Source: Opitutales bacterium (GTDB taxonomy: Bacteria; Verrucomicrobiota; Verrucomicrobiia; Opitutales; PNEW01). Taken from it: a DNA stretch of 64,000 bases. Below are positions 3,211-40,563 of the stretch, piece after piece (position 1 is the stretch's first letter; each line of letters begins with the position of its first letter). The notes beneath the pieces were generated by a model. That model worked only from the letters and a program-made list of their open reading frames with translations. It was not told the DNA's origin and did not search any database. The position numbers and the translations under genes are program-made. Location of the stretch: contig CBDANS010000006.1 in assembly GCA_965197745.1 (NCBI GenBank), positions 544,001 through 608,000 on the forward strand, in the 5' to 3' direction.

Positions 3211-4097
3211 TTGTGTCACAGGAATATTGGAATAATTACGCTCCAACTGAAGCGCTTCGGAATTGTGAGAATCCAGAAGACTACATTTACTATCTTTTAG
3301 TTTCTCAAACTCTCACGTCATTTCTGTCTAGTGTCGACTCTGTCCTTGACGTCGGTGGAGGTCCAGGCAGGTTCAGCCTGGATATCGCACCACATGTTAA
3401 AACAGTAGAACACATTGACTTTTCTCAGAAGATGCTCGACTTAGCGGTCAAAAAAGCCCGTAAGCTAGTAATTAAAAATATCAACTTCAAAAAAGTAGAT
3501 GCAAAAGACTTATCTCAATATTCCGACCAACAGTTTGATAAAGTTATTTCTATAAATACTCCAATTTCCTTCTCAGGACATGATTGGAAATTAGCTCTAA
3601 CTGAAATGTGCAGGGTTGCATCAAAAGCTGTTTTATTTACAGTATCAAATTTCATTTCAGCCTTCCCACGGTTGCTTGAAGTTTCACTAGAAAAGGACAT
3701 TGGATGGGACACCCTAGCAACTGAGTTATTTAACAATCATTTATTTGACAGAGAAAGAGGAAAGACTGTAGGTATCGATTTTCCATCGGTTCAATCGTTT
3801 CTCCCTGGAGAGATAGAACGAGAATTTTGGGATCTTGGTTTTCAGGTAAGGGATGTCCGAGGGTTAGCCATTCTATGTCGAATGATGAATCCTGAGCATT
3901 TAAAGACCATTATTAGTGATAAAAAACGGCTATCTTCTTTTCTCGAATATGAATCTATTCTCGCGACAGCGTATGGAAAGTGGGCACCATCACGTGAAAT
4001 TATGTTTATTGCTGAAAGAAAAGTTATAGGAAGTGACCTGCACCCGATTACTGTACCAGAGCCAGTGTTAGTTCCGGCAGGGTGGTATGGGTTTTAA
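3201..4097 (+). CDS. Class I SAM-dependent methyltransferase; both termini overlap IS ends, probably truncated
   Basis: [12 protein letters not shown] motif I. The GTG start lies in one IS IR and the C-terminus reads into another. Confidence 0.75.
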
Positions 4098-4914
4098 TTT
4101 TCTTAGACATGGCTCTCTGGGCGTATTCGGCCGGAGGCCGATAGCCCAGAGAACTGTGTGGTCTTTGAGTATTATAATCAAGCCGCCAGGCTTCAAGTTT
4201 TTCTTTCGCTTCAGCGAGCGTACAAAATAGCTCGGTGTTAAGAAGTTCATCTCGTAAGCGTCCATTGAAGCTCTCAATATAACCATTCTCTACGGGTTTG
4301 CCTGGCCGGATAAAATCCAGCTTGATGCCATGGCCATAAGCCCATTCATCCAGTACTTTGCCGGCAAACTCGGGACCATTATCGACGGTAATGGTTTGGG
4401 GAAGACCGATTCCTTCAGCGGCTTTCGTCAGTGCTGCAGCGACTTTGCGCCCACCGATGGATGTATCGGCTAGAAGCAGTGGGCAAGCTCGGGTGTATTG
4501 ATCGACAACGGTGAGTATGCGGAAGGGGCGGCCGTTGGTCAGCCGATCGCTCATAAAGTCCATCGACCAGCGCTTCTGGGCAGCTGAAGCCGCAGGTAGT
4601 GAGACCCGCCTTTGCGCGGCACGCTTCTTTCGTTTCTTCGTGCGCACTTCCAGCCCTTCGGCCTTGTAGATACGATAAACGCGTTTCTTTCCTACCGTCC
4701 AGCCTTCCCGCTTTAATAACACCGTGATTCGCCGATACCCGTAGCGCACGCGCGCGGCGGCGAGGTCACGGATGCGCACGATCAGCGCACGTTCGTCCTT
4801 CTTCACAGGTTGGTAGTTATAACTCGACCAACACAACTGCATCAGCCTGCACGCCCGGCGTTTGCTCACCTCATAAGCTTCCACTAACCACTCAGCAATC
4901 ACCTTCTTGCGCAC
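4048..4914 (-). CDS. IS3-family transposase OrfB (rve/DDE)
   Basis: WSMDF, DNGPEF and [19 protein letters not shown] motifs. Confidence 0.93.
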
Positions 4915-4919
4915 AGGCT

Positions 4920-5220
4920 TTACAACTTTTTTGAGATAACTTCCTGCAGCATATGCTTGTCCAGGCTTAGATCAGCCACCAGCTTCTTCAAACTAGTGTT
5001 CTCTTCGTCGAGTTGCTTCAGTCGTCTTAATTCGCTGATTCCCATGCCCGCGTATTTACCCTTCCAACCGTGGTAGGTCTGTTCGCTCACGCCTAACTCT
5101 CGACACACTTCGGCGATCCTTCGACCGCCTTCTACCTGCCTTAGGGCATAGATGATTTGTTCTTTATTATATCGTTTGTCAGGCCTTCTCGGCTGCGCCT
5201 CGTGAACCTTTGCTTTTCAT
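4920..5220 (-). pseudogene. IS3 OrfA (HTH) interrupted near its N-terminus
   Basis: ATG AAA AGC AAA GG, then an insert containing TGA, then the KRYNKEQIIYALRQ...CRELGVSEQTY frame. Confidence 0.8.
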
Positions 5221-5305
5221 GGATGGTTCTTTCTCTTATTTTTATTAGGTTTTCCACCCACGCCAGACTAAATCTTTCCTGGTCCAGTTTTACGGGGACA
5301 GGTCA

Positions 5306-5477
5306 AAGGGTGTTAATGGTTTTAGCTGCACTTGGGACAATCGTCTTCAGTCTCTCCCATAAATACACTGACAGCTATTACGCTGCGGCGGTTTTATGTA
5401 TGAGCTTTTCCCTCATCCTGTTTTTATTCTCATTGAAGATAAATAATCCCCAGGAAAAATTTGCACCTTCTCCATAA
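5306..5477 (+). pseudogene. C-terminal fragment of a membrane protein (MFS-like)
   Basis: Hydrophobic frame VLMVLAALGTIVFSLSHKYTDSYYAAAVLC...* begins at the IS end. Confidence 0.45.
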
Positions 5478-5507
5478 CTATTTTACCATTAAGTCTCTTT
5501 ATCAGCC

Positions 5508-6470
5508 ATGAAAGTTCTTTTTCTTCGCAACGCAGACAGGTTACATTTTTCTTATCGTTATCTGGTTGAATTTATTGACGGTCGTTATCCCATTGTAATT
5601 TACGATCCAAACAAACCGGCTGCTGATCAGTTTAAGGAGATTGAGGTAGTCATCGATACGGGAGGGGCCATAGGAACCCATGAGATGATGGACGCGGCTA
5701 AAGCAGCTGAAGTTAAACTATGGCAGGTTACGACCAACGGTCTCGACCATGTCGACACGGAATATATCTTGGGTAAAGGTCTGCTCCTCACCCACTCTCC
5801 GGGGCCCCTAACCGCTGTCCCTCTTGCAGAGCATGCGCTTCTTATGATTCTCTATTTCGCAAAAAACCTCAATCACAATCGCACCAAAGACTGGCATCGG
5901 GTGATGAACGATGAGCTCGAAGGAAAGACTTTGGGATTGGTCGGCTTCGGAGCAAGCGCGAAAGAATTGGCAAGACGGGCCCGGGCCCTGGGATTACGGA
6001 TCATAGCCATTGATAATAGAGATATTCCGCAGCATGAACTCGACGAATTTCATCTCGCCTTTCTTGGATACCCCGAAGATCTTGAAAAAATTCTGGTCGA
6101 GTCTGATTTCCTTTCTGTGCACGTTCCTTTAACCAAGCAAACGCGACACCTGATTGACCAGCACGCTTTCAGCGTAATGAAGGAAAAGGCGGTCCTGATC
6201 AATGTTGCGCGAGGAGAAATCGTTGACAATGATGCACTGATTGAGGCCCTGACAAGCGGTCGCATTAAAGGTGCGGGTATCGACGCATACGCCGAGGAAC
6301 CTTTGGCCCCGGAACATCCCCTTTTAAAGTTAGATAACGTTTTAACTACGCCGCATGTCGCTGGATTCACACAGGGGACGTGGCATCGACGCGCTAAAGC
6401 CGTCGCGGAGAATATTGATCGCTTAGCGAAAGGTTTATCTCCACGCAATCTAGTAAATCCACTGAGGTGA
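5508..6470 (+). CDS. D-isomer specific 2-hydroxyacid dehydrogenase
   Basis: GLVGFGA, HVPLT, INVARG and TPHVAG motifs. Confidence 0.92.
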   Translation: MKVLFLRNADRLHFSYRYLVEFIDGRYPIVIYDPNKPAADQFKEIEVVIDTGGAIGTHEMMDAAKAAEVKLWQVTTNGLDHVDTEYILGKGLLLTHSPGPLTAVPLAEHALLMILYFAKNLNHNRTKDWHRVMNDELEGKTLGLVGFGASAKELARRARALGLRIIAIDNRDIPQHELDEFHLAFLGYPEDLEKILVESDFLSVHVPLTKQTRHLIDQHAFSVMKEKAVLINVARGEIVDNDALIEALTSGRIKGAGIDAYAEEPLAPEHPLLKLDNVLTTPHVAGFTQGTWHRRAKAVAENIDRLAKGLSPRNLVNPLR

Positions 6471-6712
6471 CCCCCCCATGATTATAATTCAGTGAACACC
6501 CTGGTCGGCAGTTTCTGACTCTTGGGACTTGCGATGGGCTTCCAGAATTTTCTGCGTATCAGTCTTGGCCGGTGTGGCTTTAAATTAAAATTCGTTGCAA
6601 TATTATTGGGAGTTATTAGCCTTATGGTTTTGATATGGGGAATATCAATTAATAGACTTTCCCTTTATAAATTGCGAAATATGGTATAATTAACAGTCAA
6701 TTAAAGTAAAAA

Positions 6713-7630
6713 ATGCTTACCGCGCATCAACTCACGCACTTCAATACTTTCGGTTTCCTTCCCCTGCGAGGATTATTCAGCCCGGGTGAAATTGAAACCT
6801 TCAAGGAGGAATTCAAGTCTAAGCTGGAAACCACCCGGCGCTACACAGAACCTGAAGACACGCCTCCCCAGGTTATAAGCTGGACCAACCTGGGTGCGCA
6901 GACGCCCCTTCTCGCCACCTTGATCGAAGACCCGCGCATTGTAAGCATCGCAGAACAGATAATGGGGGAAGACTGCGTTGGAATATCCTGCAACTCGATC
7001 AGCTACGTCAATGATACTGCCTGGCATGCCGATGATTATAATTTTCATATGCACGATCTAAAATTCCTCTTCTACCTCCAACCGGTTGATGGGGATAGCG
7101 GCGCTTTGAGGGTGATTCCCGGATCCCATAAGAAAGCTTTTCATAAAGAAATAGCAAAGTATGACGGTCTCACGGGTTATGATGATGCAGAGAACCGCCT
7201 TGGAACAGAACGTATTAAAGAAGGACCAGCCTATATTTGCGACGTAGAACCGGGTGATGGATTTATCTTTGATTCCCATGTATGGCATGCCAGTTGTGGC
7301 GGATCGACGGATCGGCGCACGTTTTCCATCGTTTATTCTGGAAATCCAAAGAACGCAGAAGAAGGAAGGGCTCTAACGGAATATTTGCATATCACTAATG
7401 AAATCAGGACATCGATAGCCGAAAAAACTTTTGATTCTCCGTCTCCGGAATACCCGCTTGAATGGCTGGATAATCCTGAGCAGAATCCCAGGCGGCAGCG
7501 GTGGATAGATTGGCTGCATAAGTGGAGATTTACAGAGATCGCCCAGGGCACGCTAATCCCGGACGATTCGACCTTACAAACCGTAAAAGCATTTTCTGAT
7601 CCCTTTCGAGATACCCCGGCTGACGAATAG
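6713..7630 (+). CDS. Phytanoyl-CoA dioxygenase (PhyH) family Fe/2OG dioxygenase
   Basis: WHAD, GALRVIPGSHK and WHAS motifs. Confidence 0.88.
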   Translation: MLTAHQLTHFNTFGFLPLRGLFSPGEIETFKEEFKSKLETTRRYTEPEDTPPQVISWTNLGAQTPLLATLIEDPRIVSIAEQIMGEDCVGISCNSISYVNDTAWHADDYNFHMHDLKFLFYLQPVDGDSGALRVIPGSHKKAFHKEIAKYDGLTGYDDAENRLGTERIKEGPAYICDVEPGDGFIFDSHVWHASCGGSTDRRTFSIVYSGNPKNAEEGRALTEYLHITNEIRTSIAEKTFDSPSPEYPLEWLDNPEQNPRRQRWIDWLHKWRFTEIAQGTLIPDDSTLQTVKAFSDPFRDTPADE

Positions 7631-7721
7631 AGTCTGGTCGTGACCATTTATACCAACGATCTATAAGCAGATTTTTAAAAATCTCTGGCATTTAATTATA
7701 AAATAGCAGTTACATTTGCTT

Positions 7722-7758
7722 CCAGATTAATGGGAGAAGTAGACTCCCATTAATCTGG
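7722..7758. repeat. Perfect 15-bp inverted repeat (terminator-like hairpin)
   Basis: ccagattaatgggag-aagtaga-ctcccattaatctgg downstream of the PhyH gene. Confidence 0.7.
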
Positions 7759-7934
7759 TGTGAAAGGCCAGCTAAGACGATTACATATATCGCTCCAACG
7801 ATCCGACATCACAAAGCCAACCAATTCTTCTTTGGAGTATATTCCCATTGGTACACATTTTGAATTCTTATCTGCGCATTTCAAAGACTTTGAATTTGAC
7901 GCGATCAGATTTGCTTGATCATAGGTAACTGAGA

Positions 7935-8055
7935 GTGCAATGCCGGAGTATTGCTATGATCTGTTCTGTTGTGTATCTTTTTCTTTTCATTGAGGTTATC
8001 CGTTTATCCCGATAACCTCTCTCTGTAAATGATACGATTTTTGGGGGTCACTCCA
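7935..8055 (-). mobile_element. Left-end fragment of the IS3 type found at 20960-22309
   Basis: Reverse complement closely matches ~20960-21075 (gtgacccccaaaaa..cgtatcatttacagagagag..atgaaaagaaaaaga). Confidence 0.85.
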
Positions 8056-8735
8056 AGGGCTTCAGAATATCGACGAAGAAAACAGAATCAGCAGCATTGC
8101 AAGAGACTCTCGTTGCCGTTTTAGGCAATGATGTTCCAGGCGTTCAAAAACTGCTCGCTGATTATCTTCTGAAAATTGAAGCCCTGCAGATAGTCTTGGG
8201 AAAAACCATCTAAGCGCGGAGCGATAGCGTGGCGTTGTTGAATTAGCTCAGCAGGCATTGTCGTGTTCGTAGTGGGCTCTATACCGCTGGCGGAGATTCA
8301 GCAGCTTGACCCTGCCCACCGCTTCAAACCTGTAACCGATAAGAAGCCGTTGCTGGTGACTGCAATCGTTTGCCTGTCACGGAAACACTTAACCATTGGC
8401 TACAAAAATTCAATCAAATGCTGGGTGAAATAGTCTCCTAGGTAAACAAGAAACAGGACTGCACATACGCCGCTAAGAGGGACTGCCAGTATCGCTGTAA
8501 AAACTTCGAAAGCAACTACAGCGACCTGTCCACGGGTATGCCTCAAGAGGCCAAACACAGGAATCACGTGTAGGCGTGGGATTTCGTTTAGGACTACACC
8601 CAAAGTGGCGGCAAACTGCGTGTTTTCAGCATCATCGATGTACCGAGGAGCCGCAGGCGATGACACTCGAGCGAAGCGAAGACATAACCACGTGAATGCC
8701 ATATGCTTCATGCACACAGCGCGATCAAGGCAGCC
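8056..8735 (+). mobile_element. Heavily degenerate IS3-family remnant
   Basis: Decayed orfA end and orfB motifs (WDF-like, GGKLRVFSIID). Cut by the IS at 8736. Confidence 0.65.
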
Positions 8736-10070
8736 TGGTCGGGTTAAGCAAACTGGTCCACCGGGAGAGTTAGTCTGGAGAGGTTAATGTCGAAGTTAAG
8801 TGGGTAGAGGAAGACAAGGTTTGAGCGCGTAGACCGAATGGAGACCGAGCCTTCTGTATTGAGGTCTTCAGCAAAGCGCCGTGGGGTGATATTGCCGAGG
8901 CTGCTGATGGGGGGCGGACATGATGGTAAAGTCAGCACCAGTGCTCGATCACAACGCGTGCTTCGGTTAAAGTCCATAACTGTTCACGGTTTAAACACTC
9001 CTCGCGAAAACGGGCATGGAAAGATTCGATGTATCCGTTCTGCCAAGGACTTTCTGGTTCGATATAGAGGGTTCTTATTTTCATCGCAGCCAGCCAGGCT
9101 CGCAATTCCTTTTCAATGAATCGCTTCGCATGTCATCGCTTCGCTCCTCGGAACGCAACCGTTGTCGCTGCGAATATATTGTGGCGGTCCATGCCTCTCG
9201 ATCATTTTTTGCATGATACCGCGAACGGTTTCCGCGTTGATATGGCGATCGACATGGATGACCGGACATTCGCGGGTCTACTCGTCGAGGATGGTCAGCA
9301 TTTTGAGACTCCCACCGCGGACCGTTTTATCGTGGATAAAATCCCAGGTCCAAACATGGCCGGGATGTTCGGCTTTTGTCTGCAGGCCGGTGCAGACACC
9401 CCTGCGTCGGCGTCTTGGCTTGCGTTGGGGGATCGCCAAGCCCAGTTCACGTCGCAGACCTTGCACGAGACGTTTACCCACATGCCAGCCTTCGTCCTTC
9501 AACAGCTTCGTGATCTTGGGATAGCCCCACCTGGCGTATTGCCGTGATAACCGCCTTACTGCCGCCTTCAGTTTCGTTAGCCAGGCATCCGGATGCTTGG
9601 CCTTATACGCATAGGTGGAACGGTGCAGGTGAAAGTATCGGCACGCTGCACGCATCGAACACTGGCCCCGAGCCACAAGTCTCTCTGCCACTTGCCGCTT
9701 GTGCCCAGGGCTTACTACCGAGCGTAAGCGACATCTACCATTTTTTTTCGAGGGTCTCCTGCAGGATCTCTATCCCCAGCATCTTATCTGCCAGCATTCT
9801 TTTTAGCCGCACGTTCTCCTTCAAAGAGCTCTTTCATCCGCTTGGCCTGGTTGACATCAATCATTCCAAACTCACGCTTCCAGCGGGGGAAGGTCTGTTC
9901 GCTGACGTTGTTCTCCCGGCACACTTCCTGGATCGATTTACCCCTGTCTGCTTGCCGCAATATCCGTATCTTCTCTTCGGTGGTGTATTTTTTTGCCTTT
10001 CATTGTCTGAGTCCTTTCTAGGTTACCCAGACTAACTTTTCAAGTGTACCAGTTTTCGTGGTCACGACCA
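8736..10070 (-). mobile_element. IS3-family element, diverged copy of the 25271-26587 type, pseudogenised
   Basis: IRs tggtcgggttaagcaaactggtccac and ...ttttcgtggtcacgacca. OrfB fragment MAERLVARGQCS..., several frameshifts and two micro-insertions. Confidence 0.92.
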
Positions 10071-10330
10071 CCAGTGATGAAAATATACTCCAATGATATC
10101 CAGCTACAGATAATGATTTCATGGTAAATCACATTGATTATAATTACTAAGCTTCGAACTAAGCCGATAGACTTAATCAGAAGTAAGTAGTAATTTGTTG
10201 GTATTTTAAAAAATAGTCAAAATGATTGGACTGCTATGAGTCACAAGTCCCACCAGAACTTACCATCGTTTCGAGTTATTAGCACATATCGGTGTTGGCC
10301 ATTGAATGGTATACCACCCCGTCGGATCTA

Positions 10331-10415
10331 AAACTGACTTTGGTACAGTAAACGGGAGCAGGTCACACTCGGAATCTCTCTCACTTAAACTGGTACGAAT
10401 AACGGGGTCCGATCA
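10331..10415 (+). mobile_element. Two stacked IS3 right-end fragments from different families
   Basis: ggtacagtaaacgggagcaggtca (4034-type IR) followed by tctctcacttaaactggtacgaataacggggtccgatca (22309-type IR). Confidence 0.75.
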
Positions 10416-10579
10416 ATTCAGTAAAAACTCGATTCATTTAAAGGAAAATTACTTGTTTCAAGTCTTTGAATGTTTTAAATTGAACTTGATTGCAATATTA
10501 TTGGGAGTTATTAGCCTCTTGGTTTTGATATGGGGAATATCAGTTAATAAATAGTTTACTATAATAAAGGTGAAGACTG

Positions 10580-20959: not shown

Positions 20960-22309
20960 TGATGTGACCCCCAAAAACCGTATCATTTACAGAGAGAGAT
21001 TATCGGAATAAACAGATAACCTCAATGAAAAGAAAAAGATAACCAACAGAACAGATCATATCAATACTGCAGCAAGCCGATACCGGCAAAACGGTAGAGG
21101 AACTCTGCCGTGGTAACAACCTAAGCGAACAAACCTTCTATCGCTGGGGTAAAAAGTATGGCAACTTGGAGCTGGCCGATGCGAAGCAATTTAAAGAGCT
21201 GGAAAAAGAAAACACCGAACTGAAGAAGCTGTTGCTGATCAAATGATCAAGAACCAAGTCTTGGAGGAAACGTTCTCATAAAAAGGGTAAGCCCAAAGCA
21301 GAAGAAGCGAGCAGTAAAAGATGCGGCTGAGAGAGGGCTGTGCTCGTTTTAGAGGGCATGTTCCTATCTCAGCCTCAGTTGGTCAACGTTCAGCTATCGG
21401 CCCAAGCAGACTAGCAAGAAAGCCCAATGATTGGCCGAGCGGATTGTAACTTTGTCCTGGGAACATCCGCGCTACGGTTATCGGCGCATCCGTGCCTTAC
21501 TGGTAAAGGAGGGCTGGACAACAAGCAGGAAGTTTGTCCAGGCAGTACGAGGTGCAGAGGGCTTACAGGTAAAGCGAACGAAAAAGCGCAGCCCCCGTCA
21601 AGGGGTCTCAACAGGGCTCCCCACTAAAGCAAAAGAACGCAATCACGTTTGGTCCTGGGACTTTGTCCATGATCGCACAGACAATGGCGGTCCATTAAAG
21701 ATGATGACCTTAATCTATGAATACACACGTATATGTTTAAGCCACCGGGTAGATAGACAGCTCACCTCAACCGATGTCCTCTCTGTGCTTAGCGAGGCCA
21801 TCGAAGAGGAGGGAGCTCCTAGCTATATGCGTAGTGACAACGGCAGTGTTCCTAGGAGCGAAGCGACGACATGCCAAGCCATTCATTGCTCATCAAGTGC
21901 AGCAGTGGTTGTCAGACAAAAACATCAAGGCGATCTATATCGATCCAGCCAGTCACTGGCTACCGAGCGAAGCGACACCTCAACGAGCCATAGCGAGAAT
22001 AACAAACGGTTTCATCGAGTCGTTTCACAACCGCTTACGCGATGAGTGTTTGAACCGTGAAGTGTTGCTCAGCGTAGCTGAAGCGCAAGTGGTAATCGAA
22101 CAATGGCGTCATAATTACAATAATGAACATCCCCACAGTCGTTTAGGCTTCAAAAGCCCACAAGAGTTTGTCAGATTCCTTTCCGATCTTGGCCGCGTTC
22201 GGGCTACGCCCTCACTTCGCCAAGATCTCTGCTATACACCAATCCTAAAACCATTAACACCCGGTAACTCTCTCACTTAAAAATTGGTACGAATAACGGG
22301 GTCCGATCA
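20960..22309 (+). mobile_element. IS3-family element, pseudogenised, with two micro-insertions in orfB
   Basis: IRs tgatgtgaccccc... and ...ggggtccgatca. OrfA has stops. OrfB has WSWDF, SDNGS and NGFIESFHNRLRDE. Confidence 0.92.
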
Positions 22310-22680
22310 CAGCCCCTGGATTGAGACAAAGCGATAATGCAGAAGATTGTCTAATTTTCACAAATCCAGACTGGAGGCAGCGTTACGAAATGCTTCCAGT
22401 TTTCCACTATAATAGCGGCGAAACCATGTTGGTAATACAAGGTTTTCCAAACGGAGACAAATTAACAAAATTTATTAAGTTGTATCTAGTTTCTTATGTG
22501 TTGGGCATGATTGCAAGGTACCTTCCATCCAAGTGGCTTTCCTTGCTACGAAATGAGAAGGGTGATTTTGCACAGCCACTTCTAGTTGGTGCGACGGAAG
22601 AACTTGAAATGAACTTTGCCAAAGAATTTTCAAACCAGTTACACAGTGTTCTACGGAAAATCCCTAATGATGTGAAATAA
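22310..22680 (+). pseudogene. C-terminal fragment of a YaaC-like protein truncated by the IS
   Basis: YLVSYVLGMIARYLPSKW motif recalled from YaaC-like proteins. Confidence 0.5.
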
Positions 22681-24726: not shown

Positions 24727-25337
24727 TGATTTGTAAATTATTGATATTCAACATATTAATTTTATACATAAAATTCCTAACGGTCTTATAACGCCGCTAA
24801 TTAAGGAGTAAGCCCCAGTATAACACTCTGATTAAGCCGGGTTGATATACTCGTTGCATACTCACCACGACCCGTGATTTAGGGTTGTCACCTTCTTAGG
24901 ACGAGAGCATGTCTTGAGCAGTCTCCTTGCCCCGCCATCGCTTTAACCGTGCCCTTAGAAGTAGATCATGTTTCAAGGGGGCGGGGGGGTGCGCGATCAG
25001 AAGATATACCGCCAGTCATACTATCGATTTACTCACCGGAAAATATATTTACAAAGGACAAGGTTTGGCAGCAAAAATAATTTTAAAAGAACCACGCTTA
25101 AATTGGCTCTAAAATGTACGATCACTCTTCGTTAGGAACCCAATTTACTGTCTTAAGATGCAAACACCCTTTCTCGAGGCTCTCAGAGCCCTTCACGGGC
25201 AAATCAAATCATTGGTGGTGCTTCAAAAAATTCACCCCGCAAAGAGTAAACCAGCCAGCACTATGACAGGTGGTCGTGACCACGAAAACTGGTCCACTTG
25301 AAAAGTTAGTCTGGTCCAACTAGAAAGGACACAGACA

Positions 25338-25604
25338 ATGAAAGGCAAAAGATACACGACCGAAGAGAAAATACGGATGCTGCGCCAGGCGGACAAAGGG
25401 AAAACGATCCTGGAAGCATGCCGCGAGAACAACATAAGCGAACAGACCTTCCACCGCTGGAAACGTGAGTTTGGGATGATTGATGTCAACCAGGCCAAGC
25501 GGATGAAGGAGCTCGAGAAGGAGAACGCGCGGTTAAAACGGATGCTGGCGGACAAGATGCTGGGGATAGAGATCCTGCAGGAGACCCTCGAAAAAAAACT
25601 GTAA
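25338..25604 (+). CDS. IS3 transposase OrfA
   Basis: MKGKRYTTEEKI...ISEQTFHRWKREF...LEKKL. Confidence 0.92.
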   Translation: MKGKRYTTEEKIRMLRQADKGKTILEACRENNISEQTFHRWKREFGMIDVNQAKRMKELEKENARLKRMLADKMLGIEILQETLEKKL

Positions 25605-25624
25605 GCCCTGGGCACAAGCGGCAA

Positions 25625-26579
25625 GTGGCAGAGAGACTTGTGACTCGGGGCCAGTGTTCGATGCGAGCGGGGTGCCGGTACTTTCGGCTGCACCGTTCCA
25701 CCTATGCGTATAGGGCCAAGCATCCGGATGCCTGGCTAACGAAACTAAAAGCGGCAGTAAGGCGGTTATCACGGCAATACGCGAGGTGGGGCTATCCCAA
25801 GATCACGAAGCTGTTGAAGGACGAAGGCTGGCAGGTGGGTAAACGTCTCGTGCAAGGTCTGCGACGTGAACTGGGTCTGGCGATCCCCCCACGCAAGCCA
25901 AGACGCCGGCGCAGGGGTGTCTGCACCGGGCTACCGACAAAGGCCGAACATCCCGACCATGTTTGGACCTGGGATTTTATCCACGATAAGACGGTTCGCG
26001 GCGGCAGTCTAAAAATGCTGACCGTGCTCGATGAGTACACCCGCGAGTGCCGGGTGATCCATGTTGATCGCCATATCAATGCGGAAACGGTGCGCGGTAT
26101 CATGCAAAAACTGCTCGACCGGCATGGGCCGCCAAAATATATTCGTAGCGACAACGGTTCCGTTCCGAGGAGCGAAGCGACGACATGCAAAGCCATTCAT
26201 TGAAAGCCAATTGAGAGCCTGGCTAACTGCGATGAAAATCAAAACCCTCTATATCGAACCAGCAAGCCCTTGGCAGAACGGATACATTGAATCGTTCCAT
26301 GCCCGTTTTCGCGAGGAGTGTTTAAACCGTGAACAGTTATGGACTTTGACCGAAGCCCGCGTGGTCATCGAAGATTGGCGCTGGCTTTACAATCATGTCC
26401 GACCCCACCGCAGCCTCGGCAACATCACTCCACGGCACTTCACTGAAAACCTCAATACCGAAGGCTCGGGCTCCATTCGGGCTACGCCCTCATTGCGCCC
26501 AAGCCTTGACTTCCTCTACCAACTTAACTTCAACATTAACCTCTCCAGACTAACTCTCCCTGTGGACCAGTTTGTGTAA
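25625..26579 (+). pseudogene. IS3 OrfB frameshifted by a 33-nt insert at the DNGS/EF motif
   Basis: One frame ends SDNGSVPRSEATTCKAIH*; another continues FIESQLRAWL...PWQNGYIESFH. Confidence 0.9.
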
Positions 26580-26760
26580 CCCGACCACCCCATAGGGGAA
26601 AAACATGGTATCGCTGTGTTAGATTATGAAAATAATGTAGGACCCCATTTCGGGGGTTATGATTATGCGAGAGCCATTTATTTTGTGAAAAAAGATGAAA
26701 TTTGGTACCCTGTTAAATTTGAGTTTTCGCGCATTCGGAAGGGACAAGTGCAATAGAACT

Positions 26761-30127: not shown

Positions 30128-30170
30128 AGAAATTTATTAAATTAGATTAACGCTAAGGTTTCGCCGTTAT

Positions 30171-30603: not shown

Positions 30604-30629
30604 GCAGAACGCCACCCTTCATGGTTAAG

Positions 30630-32093: not shown

Positions 32094-32098
32094 TACGG

Positions 32099-32644: not shown

Positions 32645-32682
32645 TTTTTTCCCCAGCGAAAATCAGATTATCCATCTGGTTT

Positions 32683-33216: not shown

Positions 33217-33249
33217 AAAAAAAGGAACTTTTTTATATATATATTTATA

Positions 33250-33963: not shown

Positions 33964-34040
33964 CTGATTCGTTTTACAACAGCGTGGTTAACACCGCATT
34001 TTGAGCATGAAGAAGAGTCTGCCTCCCTTTTGACTGACAC

Positions 34041-35258
34041 CTAAACGTCGAGTATCTCCCGAGTTGTCTCGTAGCCGCCTGCGACATGAGCTGCAAGCCA
34101 GTCCGGACTGTCTCGCCGCGGTAGCGACAGCGCCGGTTCGCCCTTACAGCTCAAGCGGTAGAGTAGCCGGGCATCGTCAATCGAGCTGATTTTGAACTTG
34201 ATTGGCGGCGAGTTGTGCAGAGTCATGAAATTGTCCCAGATCGTCACGTCGCCCGGTGTGTGCACATGGTCGTAGCGGAATTGTGGCTGGAGCACGTGCG
34301 CTTCCAGGCGATCGAGAAAAGCGCGTGATTGCTCTATCGTCATCCCGTCTACCTCGATCGCCGGCCGTACCCCTGGCCGCGAAGCCCAGATCGGACTGTG
34401 TAAAGACTTTATCCCCGAACGCGGGTTGGTGCGCACCAAGGGCGCGAGCCACCCTTCATCTCCCTCGTTTAACCGTCGCCGCAGTTGAACGCGTTCCAGT
34501 GCAGTCTGCTCATCAGCCGGTAAAGCCTCAAAAGCAGCCGCCGTATCGGCATAGGGTGTCTCACCGTTTAAGGGCATATTCTTGCGCAGCTGCATCAACC
34601 TGACGTCAGAGTCCTCGTAATACGGTTTAGGGTCGCTGCTCGGTTCCTGTATCCAGTATCCTCCAGGGGCGTCGCGCGTGAGGGGCACATGGTGGACGAG
34701 AAACATGGACACGTATATCGGCAACAACTCGTACTCGATATCCGTATGCCAGGCGCCACCGGTTGACACGCGGGTATCCCCCTTCTCCCCCTTTTCCCGC
34801 TTCTCGTTGAAATTAGACACGACAAGCACCGTCGGCGACTCATGCGGCAGGCACTGCAACTGGTCAGGGAAAATCCTGTCGACGGCGGCCACCCTCCGCT
34901 TCTCGTAGGGGACAAACTCGATCGGTCCGTCGCTGGCCCCGTCATCTTGCGCCAGCTTGCCCCCACGCATGAAATTGTTCGGGTGCGGAATCGGCGCGCC
35001 CCAGTGATTGGCAAAGCGCTCAAAGTGGGCAAGGGAAAACCGGGCCAAATCCTGACCGGCGATGCAGACGATCCGAAACTGGCTTAATGCGTCGAGCAAA
35101 AAACCCACCTGGTCCTCGCTCAACTGGCAGCACAAGTCGATACCGGTGAAACGCACTCCAGCTCCGCTTTGGGTCAATGGGTTTTCGCTGTGCGCGTCGA
35201 CGCCGAACAGCACCTGCAGCCGCCGCTCCAGTTGCTGGTTTTTTGTTCCATTGTTCAT
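34041..35258 (-). CDS. TauD/TfdA family dioxygenase
   Basis: WHTD and GDVTIWDNFMTLH. GC-richer than neighbours. Confidence 0.85.
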   Translation of the reverse strand: MNNGTKNQQLERRLQVLFGVDAHSENPLTQSGAGVRFTGIDLCCQLSEDQVGFLLDALSQFRIVCIAGQDLARFSLAHFERFANHWGAPIPHPNNFMRGGKLAQDDGASDGPIEFVPYEKRRVAAVDRIFPDQLQCLPHESPTVLVVSNFNEKREKGEKGDTRVSTGGAWHTDIEYELLPIYVSMFLVHHVPLTRDAPGGYWIQEPSSDPKPYYEDSDVRLMQLRKNMPLNGETPYADTAAAFEALPADEQTALERVQLRRRLNEGDEGWLAPLVRTNPRSGIKSLHSPIWASRPGVRPAIEVDGMTIEQSRAFLDRLEAHVLQPQFRYDHVHTPGDVTIWDNFMTLHNSPPIKFKISSIDDARLLYRLSCKGEPALSLPRRDSPDWLAAHVAGGYETTREILDV

Positions 35259-35347
35259 AACTATCCCCTCATGTATAGCTATGGGCTAATATAAATGAAA
35301 GCATAAGGGGCAGTTGTTGTAATTTTTTTTAATTTATAACTGTCGCC

Positions 35348-36214
35348 CTATATCTCCATGCCGAAGTGGTCATGGAAGAACTTAGCGTATTCATCTAAAG
35401 TCATCTCTCGACCAAAATTAACCCAGTCCTCATCCGACATCGCCCGACGCCCGGCAGCCCATCCTTTAGCATCTTCACCACACAGATAGCGGAGCTTTGG
35501 CTGATTCGTTTCCAGTGATCGCTGAATAGTCTCTGCCACCAGTTTCGGTGGAGAAGCATTTGGCAACATTGTCGCGGACAGCCTTTTACTTCGCAAGTTA
35601 AACGCGTTATAAGGAGAATTGGGATCCGGATCTGGTCCGCGTTTATCAAAGATCGGGGTTCGGATAAATCCTGGCTCGATGATTACCACCCGGATGTTAA
35701 AGCGCCGAACTTCCTGCGCCAGGGATTCACTCGCCGCCTCAAGGGCGAACTTCGATCCGGAGTAGGCACCGCCCCGCGCGTTTGCCAGTAGTCCCGCGAT
35801 CGAAGAGACATTGACAATCGCGCCGCTACGGGCTTGACGCATGGTTGGCAGCACCAGTCGCATCATGCGCATCGCACCGAAGTAGTTGGTCTCAAAGACC
35901 GCCCTTAGAACTTCCTCCGGCATTTCTTCTATGGGACCACCCCCGCCGATGCCGGCATTGTTGATCAACACATCGAGCTGTCCCGTCCGCTCAAGAACCG
36001 TTTCCACCGCGCGCTCGGAAGATTTCGGATCATTCACATCGAGTTGAATTATATCAAGCTTCAGTCCCTCCTTTCGGGCCGCCTGCTTCAGCTCGTCTGA
36101 ACCGGTATCCGGGTTGCGCATGCTGGCAAAGACATGATATCCCTGGCGGGCCAGGTGGAGCGCTGTAGACTGACCGATGCCGGTGCTCGTTCCTGTAATG
36201 AGTGTAACTGACAT
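35348..36214 (-). CDS. Short-chain dehydrogenase/reductase
   Basis: TGTSTGIG, NNAG and YSGSK. Confidence 0.92.
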   Translation of the reverse strand: MSVTLITGTSTGIGQSTALHLARQGYHVFASMRNPDTGSDELKQAARKEGLKLDIIQLDVNDPKSSERAVETVLERTGQLDVLINNAGIGGGGPIEEMPEEVLRAVFETNYFGAMRMMRLVLPTMRQARSGAIVNVSSIAGLLANARGGAYSGSKFALEAASESLAQEVRRFNIRVVIIEPGFIRTPIFDKRGPDPDPNSPYNAFNLRSKRLSATMLPNASPPKLVAETIQRSLETNQPKLRYLCGEDAKGWAAGRRAMSDEDWVNFGREMTLDEYAKFFHDHFGMEI

Positions 36215-36561
36215 GTTCTTCTCCTTTAATTCTTATTCTTTAGCTCAACCAGATAAAAAAACACAGTTTCTATTAAAATTGCATAAACTACCGCTCTCAA
36301 TTGACATTCAGCAAATGTTTTGCAGGCAGCGTCTGCGCATCTGCCGAGTAGGCATCATAATATTAGAAGCGAGAGGATCAAGAGAATTTGTAAGCTCATG
36401 TGTTAAAGCATGTTCGATTTGATCCGAACGGTTGTCAAACGATATAAAAAATAAACGAATCTCAGGGTGGGCAGGTCCCAAGTATAGTTTAAATTTGTCG
36501 GTCAGCAGGATTTGTCTGCATCATTAATTTTGATAAAACCGACATAACAACTTGCGATAAT

Positions 36562-36594
36562 CTACATATGTAGTCTACTTGTCTACTTAAGTAG
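36562..36594. promoter_or_regulatory. Paired BlaI/CopY-type operator boxes
   Basis: ctacatatgtag (TACAnnTGTA) and ctacttaagtag palindromes just upstream of the BlaI-family gene. Confidence 0.75.
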
Positions 36595-36616
36595 TCTTTA
36601 AAAGAGTAAAACAACT

Positions 36617-37009
36617 ATGAATGAGAATAAGAAAATAAAATTATCCCGTCTGGAAATGGAGGTAATAGAGCCACTATGGAATATGGGCACCGCGTCGATT
36701 CGCCAGATTCATGAAAGTTTACCCGAAGAGAAACGTCCCGAGTTCACTACGGTGCAAACGATAATCTATCGTCTGGAAGAAAAAGGTGCGGTAAAGCGAC
36801 TCCATAAAATTGGCAATGCCTATATCTTCAATCCCCTTATCAGCCGCAAATCAGCGATTGGAAACTTGGTCGATGATTTACTCAGTCTCTTAGGAGGATC
36901 CCCTAACCCTATGATGGCCCATCTCCTGGAGACGGGAAAAATTACGCTAAAGGATTTAAAGCAGATGGAAACCATCTTGGATAATAACCGAGAAGAGGAC
37001 AAAAAATGA
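36617..37009 (+). CDS. BlaI/MecI/CopY family repressor
   Basis: LSRLEMEVIEPLW...TTVQTIIYRLEEKG. Confidence 0.92.
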   Translation: MNENKKIKLSRLEMEVIEPLWNMGTASIRQIHESLPEEKRPEFTTVQTIIYRLEEKGAVKRLHKIGNAYIFNPLISRKSAIGNLVDDLLSLLGGSPNPMMAHLLETGKITLKDLKQMETILDNNREEDKK

Positions 37010-39177
37010 AGCTATTTAATATTGTCAATGGACCGACACTCACTTTCTGGGTTGATATGGGCAATCACCTTTGGCAGTCCACGCTGTTTGGTTTATTCAT
37101 TGTCCTGGTAATCTTATTTCTAAATAATGCATCTGCGAATACGAGATACATTGTCGGTTGGATCGGGTTAATAAAATTTATCCTTCCCTCTGCCCTTTTG
37201 TATCAGGCAGGACAAAGTCTCCAGCTATCATTCTTTAATAAAGAGTTTTGGAATATAGAAGGATTAATCCCGTTTAACCCTCAATTTACAGAACCATTGT
37301 TCCTCTTTAATAAGACGGACTCATTATTAGTAGAACCGGTATCGATAACGACTGTATCACCCTACTCTGGAATAACCTTATTAAATATTCTTGGGTTTAT
37401 ATGGCTGGTTGGCGCTCTGCTTATTTTTGTAAGATGGCAATATCAACTTCACAATCTAAAACGAGAATTACTGACCCAGTCCCGACCGGCAAATGAATCG
37501 CTGAATACACTGTTAAAGCAATTAAGGGTAAAAATTAACCTCAAAAATAATGTATCAGCCTTACTCATCGATAAAAAAATCGAACCCGGTGTTCTTGGTG
37601 TATTCACTTCTAAGCTAATTCTGCCTGATTATCTGGTTAAGAATTTATCGGCAAAGGAGCTTGAGCCTATCCTCATACATGAACTGGCTCACGCTAAACG
37701 CCGTGACAACTTATGGGGTTTTTTGCAAATGGTCTTATTTTGTCTCCTCTGGTTTAACCCCTTAATCTGGTGGTTGAATCGTCGTTTAACCTGGGAGAGT
37801 GAAAGATCCTGCGATGAAACAGTTCTTATTCAATCCAAAGATAAAAACAATTATGCGAAAGGTATTATTATGGTTTCGCATTATTGTATCGGTTTAAAAA
37901 CACCGGGCTTTTCAGGTATTAACGATATACGCCTGGAAAACAGATTGGAATCTATTATCAGATTCAACGGTAATAAATTATTCAGTCGCTTCACGCACCG
38001 GTTTATTATTGTCACTGCCTTGTTCTTCTTATTTCTCACCACTTCAACCAGTGGATTCCTTGCTCATTTAGGAGCATTAAACATTCATGAAGACAGTAAC
38101 ACTGCAAAAGATGTTATTGCCGCCGCAGAGGGTGACTCGATAAATGAAGTCATCAATAATAGAGAGGCTGTTTTGCCCGATGAAAAGGCCTTCAATGCTG
38201 TAAATAATAGCCATGAAGTAATACCAATGGCTAAGGAGGAAAGAAGCAATGAATCCCACTCGGGTTATGTTGAAATCGCACCTGAATCAACACTCAAAAT
38301 AACAGATTCAGATCCTCCTCAATCTATTGAGGTGGAAGATTATACTAGCTTACCCGATTCCGTAAAGATTCCCTTTTTCAATGCCTCCACAACCTCTACT
38401 CTCAATAAGCTGTTTAGACCGCTGCAGGTTGCCCAAACCACAGGTGGAGATAAAACGGATCGAATTTATGAACGGGAATATCCGACAAGCTATGAGGAAG
38501 AAGTTGACATAAATATCGCTGACTATCCCGATCTGGAAATTAAAAATAAAGTGATGCCGAGATTTCCAAGATCGGTTCTCCATTTAGGTTACGATAAAGG
38601 CTTTGCCAAAATAGTTTTTATTGTCGATGAGGCAGGTCAACAGAGAGATTTTGTCGTAACCTCTACTTCTCATCCCGACTTCGGCATGGAGTTACTTAAA
38701 GCATTAAGAAAATGGAAATTTTCTCCCATCTACGTTAAGAGAAAACCACAGACGACGCGGATCAAATTGGAAGCTAACTTTAAATTTAGAGGGATCAGTA
38801 ATGATGATATAAATATAATAGAAGAAGCCCAATTGCGTTTTGAAAGAGTTAAGCCCATCTACAGAATAAATAATCTAAGTGAATTAGATAGGGAACCAAG
38901 ACTGCTTAAAGAAGTGCCTCCCTTTTTTCCTGAAAAAATGAAAAGAAGAAACAAAAACGGGAGAGTATTGGTTGAGTTTTTCATTGATCCTAACGGTAAC
39001 GTATTGGCTCCGGGAATAAAGTCGGCAACGAATGATGATTTTGCCATTGCCGTCCTATCCGCTGTTCAGAAATGGAAGTTTGAACCACCAATGAAGAATG
39101 GAATCCCGGTATCAGCGCATGTGTTTCAGCATTTCAATTTTAGTTATGTCCCGGTGAAAAAAAATAAAAACAGGTAA
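37006..39177 (+). CDS. BlaR1-like M56 peptidase fused to two TonB C-terminal domains
   Basis: HELAH, WFNPLIW and ERSCDE, plus two TonB_C repeats ending WKFSP and WKFEP. Confidence 0.9.
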   Translation: MKLFNIVNGPTLTFWVDMGNHLWQSTLFGLFIVLVILFLNNASANTRYIVGWIGLIKFILPSALLYQAGQSLQLSFFNKEFWNIEGLIPFNPQFTEPLFLFNKTDSLLVEPVSITTVSPYSGITLLNILGFIWLVGALLIFVRWQYQLHNLKRELLTQSRPANESLNTLLKQLRVKINLKNNVSALLIDKKIEPGVLGVFTSKLILPDYLVKNLSAKELEPILIHELAHAKRRDNLWGFLQMVLFCLLWFNPLIWWLNRRLTWESERSCDETVLIQSKDKNNYAKGIIMVSHYCIGLKTPGFSGINDIRLENRLESIIRFNGNKLFSRFTHRFIIVTALFFLFLTTSTSGFLAHLGALNIHEDSNTAKDVIAAAEGDSINEVINNREAVLPDEKAFNAVNNSHEVIPMAKEERSNESHSGYVEIAPESTLKITDSDPPQSIEVEDYTSLPDSVKIPFFNASTTSTLNKLFRPLQVAQTTGGDKTDRIYEREYPTSYEEEVDINIADYPDLEIKNKVMPRFPRSVLHLGYDKGFAKIVFIVDEAGQQRDFVVTSTSHPDFGMELLKALRKWKFSPIYVKRKPQTTRIKLEANFKFRGISNDDINIIEEAQLRFERVKPIYRINNLSELDREPRLLKEVPPFFPEKMKRRNKNGRVLVEFFIDPNGNVLAPGIKSATNDDFAIAVLSAVQKWKFEPPMKNGIPVSAHVFQHFNFSYVPVKKNKNR

Positions 39178-39313
39178 GTAAACCTTCAAGTAAGCTACTC
39201 AAGGCAGAAAGGGGTAAAATGGCTAAGCTTTTCCATAATAGGTTACTGGTCGTGACCACGAAAACTGGTCCACTTGAAAAGTTAGTCTGGTCCAACTAGA
39301 AAGGACACAGACA

Positions 39314-39580
39314 ATGAAAGGCAAAAGATACACGACCGAAGAGAAAATACGGATGCTGCGCCAGGCGGACAAAGGGAAAACGATCCTGGAAGCATGCCGC
39401 GAGAACAACATAAGCGAACAGACCTTCCACCGCTGGAAACGTGAGTTTGGGATGATTGATGTCAACCAGGCCAAGCGGATGAAGGAGCTCGAGAAGGAGA
39501 ACGCGCGGTTAAAACGGATGCTGGCGGACAAGATGCTGGGGATAGAGATCCTGCAGGAGACCCTCGAAAAAAAACTGTAA
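39314..39580 (+). CDS. IS3 transposase OrfA
   Basis: Identical protein to 25338-25604. Confidence 0.92.
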   Translation: MKGKRYTTEEKIRMLRQADKGKTILEACRENNISEQTFHRWKREFGMIDVNQAKRMKELEKENARLKRMLADKMLGIEILQETLEKKL

Positions 39581-39600
39581 GCCCTGGGCACAAGCGGCAA

Positions 39601-40555
39601 GTGGCAGAGAGACTTGTGACTCGGGGCCAGTGTTCGATGCGAGCGGGGTGCCGGTACTTTCGGCTGCACCGTTCCACCTATGCGTATAGGGCCAAGCATC
39701 CGGATGCCTGGCTAACGAAACTAAAAGCGGCAGTAAGGCGGTTATCACGGCAATACGCGAGGTGGGGCTATCCCAAGATCACGAAGCTGTTGAAGGACGA
39801 AGGCTGGCAGGTGGGTAAACGTCTCGTGCAACGTCTGCGACGTGAACTGGGTCTGGCGATCCCCCCACGCAAGCCAAGACGCCGGCGCAGGGATGTCTGC
39901 ACCGGGCTACCGACAAAGGCCGAACATCCCGACCATGTTTGGACCTGGGATTTTATCCACGATAAGACGGTTCGCGGCGGCAGTCTAAAAATGCTGACCG
40001 TGCTCGATGAGTACACCCGCGAGTGCCGGGTGATCCATGTTGATCGCCATATCAATGCGGAAACGGTGCGCGGTATCATGCAAAAACTGCTCGACCGGCA
40101 TGGGCCGCCAAAATATATTCGTAGCGACAACGGTTCCGTTCCGAGGAGCGAAGCGACGACATGCAAAGCCATTCATTGAAAGCCAATTGAGAGCCTGGCT
40201 AACTGCGATGAAAATCAAAACCCTCTATATCGAACCAGCAAGCCCTTGGCAGAACGGATACATTGAATCGTTCCATGCCCGTTTTCGCGAGGAGTGTTTA
40301 AACCGTGAACAGTTATGGACTTTGACCGAAGCCCGCGTGGTCATCGAAGATTGGCGCTGGCTTTACAATCATGTCCGACCCCACCGCAGCCTCGGCAACA
40401 TCACTCCACGGCACTTCACTGAAAACCTCAATACCGAAGGCTCGGGCTCCATTCGGGCTACGCCCTCATTGCGCCCAAGCCTTGACTTCCTCTACCAACT
40501 TAACTTCAACATTAACCTCTCCAGACTAACTCTCCCTGTGGACCAGTTTGTGTAA
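39601..40555 (+). pseudogene. IS3 OrfB frameshifted by the same 33-nt insert
   Basis: Insert at 40139-40171. Confidence 0.9.
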
Positions 40556-40563
40556 CCCGACCA

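What the first reader, a model, noticed from the sequence alone, without database searches (positions are those of the whole stretch)
4034..40563. Every near-complete IS3 in the window is hit by a micro-insertion: possible transposon-silencing system
Seen: all five full-length IS3 elements (4034, 8736, 20960, 25271, 39247) and one remnant (8056) carry at least one insert. The sites are the orfA N-terminus, the orfA/B slippery site, the D-E-Y motif after the first catalytic strand, DNGSEF and PWQNG. Ordinary CDSs, which make up most of the window, show only one insert, in a repeat-derived N-terminus. Inference: either a host or parasite system preferentially inactivates IS DNA, or insertion is neutral and copies in useful genes are purged.
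Basis: inference. Interest (0 to 1): 0.75.

Follow-up and report, generated by a model that had tools for sequence, protein, structure and literature searches.

The report
Tiny inserts that break IS3 transposases
Nearly every IS3-type jumping gene in this sponge-associated Opitutales genome is broken by the same few 23-45-base inserts at the same codons, which look like parasites of the jumping genes, not a host silencing system.

Summary
All five full-length IS3 copies and the remnant in the window carry 23-45 nt inserts at the sites named. Genome-wide, 37 of 41 family A copies and 36 of 36 family B copies carry at least one.

The inserts form one family. They start T(A/T)CCGAG…GCGAC, do not form hairpins, make no target duplication, and land after G or C, replacing an A-purine pair. 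IS3 DNA is 3.1% of the genome but holds 127 of 182 motif matches (12 expected).

"Every IS is hit" is largely shared descent, because disrupted copies amplified in bursts. Descent is not the whole story. The 32-nt DNGS^EF insert sits in 14 diverged lineages at 97% insert identity, while the adjoining 10 nt are 60-73% identical. Insert-free versions of several lineages exist. Transposase codons evolved at dN/dS 0.1-0.35. So the insert was gained repeatedly and precisely.

IS4, IS1595 and IS110 copies (27 of 27) are untouched, which argues against a general silencing system.

My best reading is a hyperparasitic micro-element that spreads by copying between IS3 copies and by riding on their amplification. 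The enzyme is unknown.

This scan noted the same kind of insert earlier in other Opitutales genomes. The closest published analogue is the small dispersed repeats of cyanobacteria.

The parts
4034..5305 (-). IS3-family element, family C (about 14 repeat regions in the genome)
   Evidence: BLAST against the genome; alignment of 10 copies; repeat cluster 1
5179..5206 (-). Micro-insert (f), 28 nt, between AAAGG and CAAACG in the orfA N-terminus; shifts the frame
   Evidence: Polymorphic among family C copies: 6 filled and 4 empty sites. An (f)-type unit sits at a different, non-homologous orfA site of family B in relative G060
8056..8735 (+). Older IS3 remnant, cut off by the family A copy inserted next to it
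   Evidence: BLAST; position next to 8736
8641..8683 (+). Micro-insert (a), 43 nt, in ATCGATG^A (D-E-Y); decayed copy with 5 differences from the common form
8736..10070 (-). IS3 family A copy, about 88% identical to the young A copies; also carries other small lesions
9122..9153 (-). Micro-insert (b), 32 nt, at DNGS^EF; 2 differences from the common form
9716..9739 (+). Micro-insert (e), 24-25 nt, at the A8 slippery site, antisense to the gene; net +23 nt
20964..22312 (+). IS3 family B copy (divergent singleton)
21849..21880 (+). Micro-insert (b) at DNGS^EF of family B
   Evidence: (repeat D5)
21961..22003 (+). Micro-insert (c), 43 nt, at PW^QNG; net +42, in frame and without a stop
25271..26587 (+). 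IS3 family A copy of the young A1 clade; (b) is its only lesion
26163..26194 (+). Micro-insert (b), variant with A at its position 27
39247..40563 (+). IS3 family A copy of the A1 clade; (b) is its only lesion
40139..40170 (+). Micro-insert (b)
52333..52355 (+). The 23-25 nt unit of the same family nested in a MITE-like repeat at GACGCGGC^AATCCAGG; the neighbouring repeat copy at 51802-51900 has the empty site
   Evidence: (repeat D7)
42435..42458 (-). Unit of the same family in a second MITE-like repeat (…AGCCAC^AAAAGCACAAG type); a further copy starts at 42310 (+)

Best explanation
The inserts belong to one family of ultra-small (23-45 nt), non-coding, non-hairpin DNA modules. They share a 5' head T(A/T)CCGAG(GAG)CG.AAGCGAC and behave as parasites of IS3-family insertion sequences and of MITE-like repeats.

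Shown here:
- They enter after G or C, replace an A-purine dinucleotide, and make no target duplication.
- They break the transposase frame. The exception is (c), which stays in frame.
- They occupy six fixed sites in three IS3 families.

Inferred:
- A small number of primary insertions were made by an unidentified enzyme.
- Each module was then copied precisely into the same codon of other IS3 lineages, by homology- or microhomology-guided copying between IS copies (homing-like gene conversion).
- Copy number then rose because disrupted but end-intact IS copies were amplified in trans.

The net effect is that most IS3 transposase genes in this genome are inactivated. This is hyperparasitism plus hitch-hiking, not a dedicated host silencing system.
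For: One family and a target rule:
- Shared head, and the S^AR junction at 8 of 9 site classes.
- With GC 0.455, a random site fits S^AR with p of about 0.06.

Real mobility to non-homologous sites:
- The 24-25 nt unit is found at the family A slippery site, in two MITE-like repeats, and in a tRNA-3'-end-like repeat of other genomes.
- The (f) type is at two unrelated orfA sites.

Repeated precise gain:
- (b) is present in 73 copies in 14 flank clusters. Insert identity is 96.6% against 61% for the flanks.
- The adjacent 10 nt are 60-73% identical against 97% for the insert.
- Families A and B are only 54% identical overall.
- Insert-free forms with lineage-specific flanks exist for A1, A3 and B and for A2 in RNA-library contigs.
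- An insert-free form cannot arise from a filled form by a single deletion. This follows from the junction sequences.
- dN/dS is 0.11-0.35 in family A and 0.09-0.33 in family B, with dS up to 0.48. No stop occurs in 225 codons once the inserts are removed.

Copying between copies:
- A flanking TTT to TTC change travels with (b) in 9 of 9 filled against 0 of 4 empty A1 copies.
- All four allele combinations occur within a clade that differs by 0.5% or less.
- There is a B/A chimera joined at (b).

Hitch-hiking:
- Bursts of near-identical filled copies: 15 A2, 9 B1, 15 B2.
- G060 has about 43 family B sites free of (b). Five of five sampled copies carry (a).

Not a general system:
- 27 of 27 IS4, IS1595 and IS110 copies are clean.
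- The family C DNGPEF site is never filled, although it has G^AG.
Against: - No enzyme is identified. No RVT_1 was found in a genome that is 92% complete. The single Y1/RAYT-like gene has no units beside it.
- The modules lack the hairpins that HUH enzymes use.
- Cross-family copying would have to work with 50-85% identity in the 20-nt flanks, which is too little for ordinary RecA-dependent conversion.
- No fully intact family B copy was found among 36 full-length copies here. A sweep through intact copies after their amplification therefore fits the bursts about as well as amplification of dead copies in trans does.
- Junction assignment is ambiguous by about 1 nt.
- This is a metagenome-assembled genome in 7 contigs, so repeat copies could be partly mis-assembled.
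Confidence: 0.5

Rival explanations
1. A dedicated sequence-specific system, host-encoded or encoded by another mobile element, recognises DNA that codes for conserved IS3 transposase motifs. It installs a short disruptive module there, sweeping through resident copies after they amplify. This would be true transposon silencing or homing.
For: - The same codon is hit in up to 14 diverged lineages, with sharp insert boundaries.
- Family A has about 160 S^AR positions in its coding span, yet only five sites are used.
- Three sites are shared by families that are 54% identical.
- Inserts are the first or only lesion in 28 of 41 family A and 8 of 36 family B copies.
- Whole bursts are filled, and no intact family B copy is left.
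- Occupancy differs between genomes like a sweep at different stages: 73 of 81, 12 of 16 and 14 of 71.
Against: - No candidate machinery was found.
- Other IS families are untouched, 27 of 27.
- The family C DNGPEF site is never filled.
- The same module family also sits in non-coding MITE-like and tRNA-like repeats.
- Uniformly filled bursts are explained more simply by descent.
Confidence: 0.2
2. There is no preference. Rare random insertions are neutral in IS DNA, are purged from useful genes, and were multiplied only because the IS copies that carried them multiplied.
For: Bursts of identical filled copies. The window's six 'hits' reduce to five insert types.
Against: - Unique non-coding DNA holds almost none. 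Nineteen matches lie outside IS3 DNA and MITE-like repeats, against 12 expected.
- Filled and empty forms both exist within several lineages.
- Insert identity far exceeds flank identity.
- dN/dS is well below 1 between filled lineages.
- The same sites recur across families.
Confidence: 0.12
3. The modules are functional parts of the IS3 elements. They would be recoding or attenuator cassettes that are bypassed, read through or removed, so that transposase is still made at a low level.
For: - Codons stay under purifying selection, and many filled copies have no other lesion.
- (c) is in frame and has no stop.
- (a) is in frame with a single TGA.
Against: - (b), (d), (e) and (f) shift the frame by 31, 35, 23 and 28 nt.
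- The junctions show no matching take-off and landing codons. The preceding codon is TCC, AGT or TCG depending on lineage.
- The modules have no structure.
- The insert-free sequence seen in RNA-library contigs cannot be produced from the filled form by one excision.
- Old filled singletons accumulate further lesions.
Confidence: 0.06

Closest known systems
Small dispersed repeats (SDR1-8) of Nostoc and Anabaena (Elhai et al. 2008, Genome Res 18:1484). Recalled only: the paper is not held. It is cited as reference 43 in PMC3116915.
   Same: Very short (tens of nt) repeated units found nested inside other repeated or mobile sequences, without target duplication, and with no known enzyme. This rests on recall.
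   Different: - Different phylum and an unrelated sequence.
- These units reach 45 nt and are not hairpins.
- They sit at fixed codons of IS3 transposase genes across diverged lineages.
- They replace a dinucleotide at S^AR.
RUP element of Streptococcus pneumoniae. [quoted passage not shown]
   Same: The idea that a small non-autonomous repeat disrupts IS elements and curbs them.
   Different: - RUP is a 107-bp MITE with terminal inverted repeats, thought to be mobilised by IS630-Spn1.
- Its association with IS elements was not supported on complete genomes (same paper).
- Here the enrichment is 73-fold by density, and the units lack inverted repeats and target duplications.
REP/REPIN elements mobilised by RAYT (Y1 HUH) transposases (PMC3116915, abstract and passages)
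   Same: Short, non-coding, dispersed and trans-mobilised. A single RAYT-like Y1 gene is present in this genome.
   Different: REPs are palindromic and extragenic, and they flank their RAYT. These units do not fold, lie inside genes of mobile elements, and are not beside the Y1 gene.
Homing of introns and inteins into conserved sites of genes. This comparison rests on general knowledge, not on a call.
   Same: The same conserved coding site is occupied in diverged homologues. Filled and empty alleles coexist. A flanking marker is co-converted in one clade.
   Different: There is no encoded endonuclease and no splicing, and the host gene is destroyed. No co-conversion is seen in the A3 and B3 lineages, where the flanking TTT is kept.

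Membership tests
IS3 family insertion sequences (the hosts of the inserts) | Two overlapping frames (orfA, orfB) joined by a -1 slip on an A-rich heptamer | tested here: met
   The insert-free family A copy reads orfA, then A AAA AAA, then orfB in the -1 frame, open to the end
IS3 family insertion sequences (the hosts of the inserts) | DDE integrase-type catalytic core (rve) with an HTH N-terminal part | tested here: met
   Pfam rve 2.5e-22, rve_3 5.4e-26, HTH_21 4.4e-09
Small dispersed repeats (SDR, cyanobacteria) | Units of a few tens of nt nested in other repeats, with no target duplication | tested here: met
   Units of 23-45 nt inside IS3 copies and MITE-like repeats; filled/empty pairs show no duplication
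Small dispersed repeats (SDR, cyanobacteria) | Sequence relatedness to the described SDR families | not testable with these tools
   The paper and its sequences are not held. The exact (b) form was found only in this genome and one other Opitutales MAG
REP/REPIN with RAYT | Imperfect palindrome that forms a hairpin | tested here: not met
   Six units folded as DNA give minimum free energy from 0 to -2.3 kcal/mol and z from +0.24 to +1.73. All six fold worse on average than their shuffles
REP/REPIN with RAYT | Single-copy RAYT gene flanked by its REPs | tested here: not met
   One Y1_Tnp ORF at C6:163380-163706; no unit within the 3.3 kb around it
MITE | Terminal inverted repeats and a target-site duplication | tested here: not met
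   No self-complementarity. The junctions show loss or replacement of 1-2 nt, not duplication
IS200/IS605-type single-strand elements | Subterminal hairpins, and insertion 3' of a fixed tetra- or pentanucleotide | tested here: not met
   No hairpins. The left flanks vary (GATG, AGTG, TCCG, TGGC, TTAC, CGGC) and share only the final G or C
Programmed translational bypass elements (T4 gene 60 type) | Matching take-off and landing codons around the gap | tested here: not met
   Read directly from the junction sequences. The codon before (b) is TCC, AGT or TCG depending on lineage, and no matching codon lies at the 3' junction. (a) carries an in-frame TGA

The most novel reading that the evidence does not exclude
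A sequence-specific homing process, run by an enzyme encoded elsewhere in the host or on another element, repeatedly writes short protein-less modules into the DNA that codes for conserved catalytic-core motifs of IS3 transposases. It sweeps through resident copies. This would be a DNA-level, heritable way of switching off a whole transposon family, and the smallest known homing elements.
Probability: 0.2. Interest if true: 0.9.

Novelty: new variant of a known kind. Interest (0 to 1): 0.62.

Why it matters
If short protein-less modules can be installed repeatedly and precisely at the same codons of a transposase family, they are a new layer in the ecology of mobile DNA: parasites of parasites. 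They would decide which insertion sequences stay active in a genome.

Here they are the main way IS3 copies die, ahead of ordinary mutation.

The three related genomes have 90%, 75% and 20% occupancy of one site. That gives a natural series in which the spread could be followed and the responsible enzyme sought.

In practice, automatic annotation will call these copies pseudogenes with frameshifts and will miss that the lesions are one recurring element.

Tried and rejected
- **RNA-level removal or splicing.** Contigs of RNA libraries X15 and X16 hold an insert-free form (…CCG-AG-TTC…, depth 22), an A1-type empty form (depth 3.1) and a filled form (depth 4.9). The empty sequence cannot be derived from the filled one by a single excision, so it is DNA-encoded somewhere in that community. 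These were contigs only, with no DNA run of the same sample laid, so this says nothing on expression level.
- **Ancient insert kept alike by concerted evolution.** Rejected because lineage-specific empty forms exist and the codons are under purifying selection.
- **Two further 'inserts' in family B** (20 and 21 nt blocks). They are ordinary coding sequence deleted in single copies, so I dropped them.
- **Hairpin nature.** Rejected.
- **Rfam families in the window.** 0 matches.
- **Reverse transcriptase.** 0 RVT_1 matches in the 92%-complete genome.
- **Y1/RAYT-like gene as the enzyme.** Relatives occur in 57 of 201 Opitutales genomes, and in 9 of the 13 genomes that hold the head motif.
- **Metagenome contigs.** Neither the empty A2-type junction nor the filled junction was found. 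The collection evidently lacks this lineage, so this is uninformative.
- **Nucleotide conservation as the reason for the sites.** The five sites lie at the 51st to 96th percentile of family A-B identity. This is only modest support.
- **Literature.** No description of such inserts in IS3 genes turned up in four searches. I read passages of PMC11410982, which do not mention them. Elhai 2008 could not be read.
Full report
**What is in the window**

The window lies in a 4.45-Mb, 7-contig genome. Earlier notes of this scan place it in the Opitutales, probably a sponge symbiont. It holds five full-length IS3-family elements and one remnant:
- family C at 4034-5305 (-);
- a remnant at 8056-8735;
- family A at 8736-10070 (-), 25271-26587 and 39247-40563;
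- family B at about 20964-22312.

An insert-free family A copy elsewhere in the genome reads as a textbook IS3. It has orfA, an A AAA AAA slip site, and orfB in the -1 frame, with rve, rve_3 and HTH_21 domains.

Compared with such empty copies, every window element carries at least one short insert:
- (f) at 5179-5206, orfA N-terminus;
- (a) at 8641-8683, D-E-Y;
- (b) at 9122-9153, 21849-21880, 26163-26194 and 40139-40170, DNGS^EF;
- (e) at 9716-9739, slippery site, antisense;
- (c) at 21961-22003, PW^QNG.

**One family of modules with a target rule**

The inserts share a head T(A/T)CCGAG(GAG)CG.AAGCGAC, followed by a variable purine-rich tail that mostly ends in CA. A sixth type, (d), sits at D^ECLN in family B copies outside the window.

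Filled/empty pairs show that the module follows a G or C and takes the place of an A-purine pair. The net gains are 23, 28, 31, 35, 42 and 42 nt, and there is no target duplication. This holds at 8 of 9 site classes: a, b, c, d, e, two MITE-like repeats, and a tRNA-3'-end-like repeat of other Opitutales genomes where the unit splits GGTTCG^AATCC. Type (f) is the exception. A random site fits this rule with a probability of about 0.06.

None of the six units folded forms a hairpin. All fold worse than the average of their shuffles (z +0.24 to +1.73).

Inserts (b), (d), (e) and (f) shift the frame. Insert (a) is in frame but carries a TGA. Insert (c) is in frame and open.

**Enrichment in IS3 DNA is real**

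A head-motif scan finds 182 matches in the genome, against 12 in the reversed genome.
- IS3 A/B/C DNA is 137,137 bp, or 3.08% of the genome. It holds 127 of the matches, which is 0.93 per kb.
- The other 4.3 Mb holds 55 matches, or 0.013 per kb. Of these, 36 are the 24-25-nt unit nested in MITE-like repeats.
- That leaves 19 matches, near the control level.

Unique non-coding DNA is therefore essentially free of the inserts. The alternative 'neutral everywhere, purged from useful genes' does not fit.

By copy, 37 of 41 full-length family A elements and 36 of 36 family B elements carry at least one module. Six of ten family C sites are filled.

The modules are also the leading lesion.
- In 28 of 41 family A copies they are the only lesion.
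- Extra frameshifts or stops are seen mostly in the most diverged singletons, plus two copies about 3% and 6% from the reference.
- Eight family B copies have only modules. Fourteen more have modules plus one stop.

**Much of 'every IS is hit' is shared descent**

The filled copies form bursts of near-identical elements:
- 15 A2 copies, all with (b);
- 9 filled copies in the young A1 clade;
- 9 B1 and 15 B2 copies, all with (a) and (b).

Relative G060 has about 43 family B sites that lack (b). Five of five sampled copies carry (a).

Disrupted elements with intact ends have therefore multiplied, presumably in trans. The window's six 'hits' reduce to five insert types.

**Descent alone fails**

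Insert (b) occurs 73 times, always at the same nucleotide.
- The 73 copies fall into 14 clusters of flanking sequence. Between clusters the insert is 96.6% identical, while the ±60-nt flanks are 61% identical without gaps.
- For cross-family pairs, the 10 nt on either side are 60% and 73% identical, against 97% for the insert.
- Families A and B are only 54% identical overall.

Types (a), (c) and (d) behave the same way, with 7, 6 and 9 flank clusters. Types (a), (b) and (c) occur in both A-type and B-type elements.

Empty sites with lineage-specific flanks exist for:
- A1 (4 copies here);
- A3 and A1-like copies in G060;
- B in all three genomes;
- A2, in contigs of two RNA libraries.

Because the filled junction lacks the purine of the original codon, an empty site cannot be regenerated by deleting the insert. 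Empty is therefore the ancestral state in each lineage.

With the inserts removed, orfB of eight family B representatives has no stop in 225 codons. dN/dS is 0.09-0.33 at dS up to 0.48. Family A gives 0.11-0.35, with one pair of decayed copies at 0.52.

The lineages therefore diverged as working genes and acquired the same module later, repeatedly, at the same position. Family A has about 160 S^AR positions in its coding span, so the short target rule alone cannot explain this recurrence.

**How it spreads**

Within the A1 clade (13 copies, 0.5% divergence or less), all four combinations of two polymorphic sites occur. A flanking TTT to TTC change accompanies (b) in 9 of 9 filled copies and 0 of 4 empty copies. 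This is the signature of copying from another filled copy with a very short co-converted tract.

In the A3 and B3 lineages the flank is unchanged, so the copying can also be exact.

One element is a B/A chimera joined at (b).

True movement to unrelated sites is shown for two types.
- The 24-25-nt unit is found at the slip site, in two MITE-like repeats and in a tRNA-like repeat.
- The (f) type is at the family C orfA N-terminus here and in the family B orfA coiled coil in G060.

Occupancy of the DNGS^EF site is 73 of 81 here, 12 of 16 in G032 and 14 of 71 in G060. The exact (b) form was found in no other species genome of the collection. A related head occurs in 13 of 201 Opitutales genomes searched, inside other repeats.

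**Not a general silencing system, and no machinery found**
- IS4 (12 copies), IS1595 (6 and 5) and IS110 (4) are 98.9% or more identical within each family, intact and free of inserts.
- The family C DNGPEF site is never filled, although it offers G^AG.
- No reverse transcriptase was found.
- The single Y1/RAYT-like gene has no units beside it. Its distribution gives only a confounded hint.

**Verdict**

My best reading, at about 0.5, is a hyperparasitic micro-element family akin to cyanobacterial small dispersed repeats (recalled; the paper is not held). It makes rare primary insertions, is copied between IS3 copies at homologous sites, and rides on IS amplification.

A dedicated homing or silencing machinery is not excluded (about 0.2). 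It would explain the sharp boundaries, the saturated bursts and the absence of an intact family B copy.

The idea that small repeats curb IS elements was proposed for RUP in pneumococci and later not supported there (PMC3049150, passages).

The same kind of insert was noted earlier by this scan in other Opitutales genomes. What this genome adds:
- the whole-genome census;
- the S^AR rule;
- the lack of hairpins;
- the selection and boundary tests for repeated gain;
- the three-genome occupancy series.

Noticed in passing
Genome C7:1901266-1902545 and C4:136859-138138; relative G060 loci L046, L050, L052. In window copy 8736-10070, the site is in orfA: A clustered change in family A orfA (CTCGAGAAGG to CTCTTTGAAGG, +1 nt) puts the orfA N-terminus in frame with orfB. 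This gives one open frame of 426-492 codons that needs no ribosomal frameshift. About 13 insert-free copies of this form occur in G060. The change is spread mosaic-wise over family A subfamilies.
   Followed up: partly
Family B copies of the genome, for example C6:23409-24756 (B2 burst): A clustered four-base change, TTGCGA to TTTTAG, creates a stop in orfB. It is shared by 14 or more copies, while the B1 burst keeps TTGCGA. Like the change above, it is a multi-nucleotide replacement and not a point mutation. Its origin is unexplained.
   Followed up: no
Genome C7:944747-946136 (locus L016) and four further copies: A 1.39-kb repeat in five copies (82-89% identical) encodes a 429-residue tyrosine recombinase (Phage_integrase, 3.5e-10). 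It may be a mobile element in its own right and a candidate enzyme for the small repeats of this genome.
   Followed up: no
Genome C7:1673285-1674703: A chimeric IS3 element has a family B left part and a family A right part, joined exactly at insert (b). The shared insert can evidently serve as a recombination patch between otherwise diverged families.
   Followed up: partly
Loci L009 and L010 (other Opitutales genomes G033 and G176): Tandem repeats that look like tRNA 3' ends (T-arm plus CCA) are each split in the T-loop, GGTTCG^AATCC, by a 36-nt unit of the same module family.
   Followed up: no
window 8056-10070: This is a nested arrangement. The family A copy at 8736-10070 is inserted into or against an older IS3 remnant (8056-8735) that already carried insert (a).
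   Followed up: partly
window 51684-53940 and 42300-42460: Clusters of MITE-like repeats with the core GTCATTGCGAG…CGAAGCAATCCAGG lie here. The loop of this core resembles the head of the micro-inserts. Filled and empty versions lie 439 nt apart (51802-51900 against 52241-52339).
   Followed up: partly
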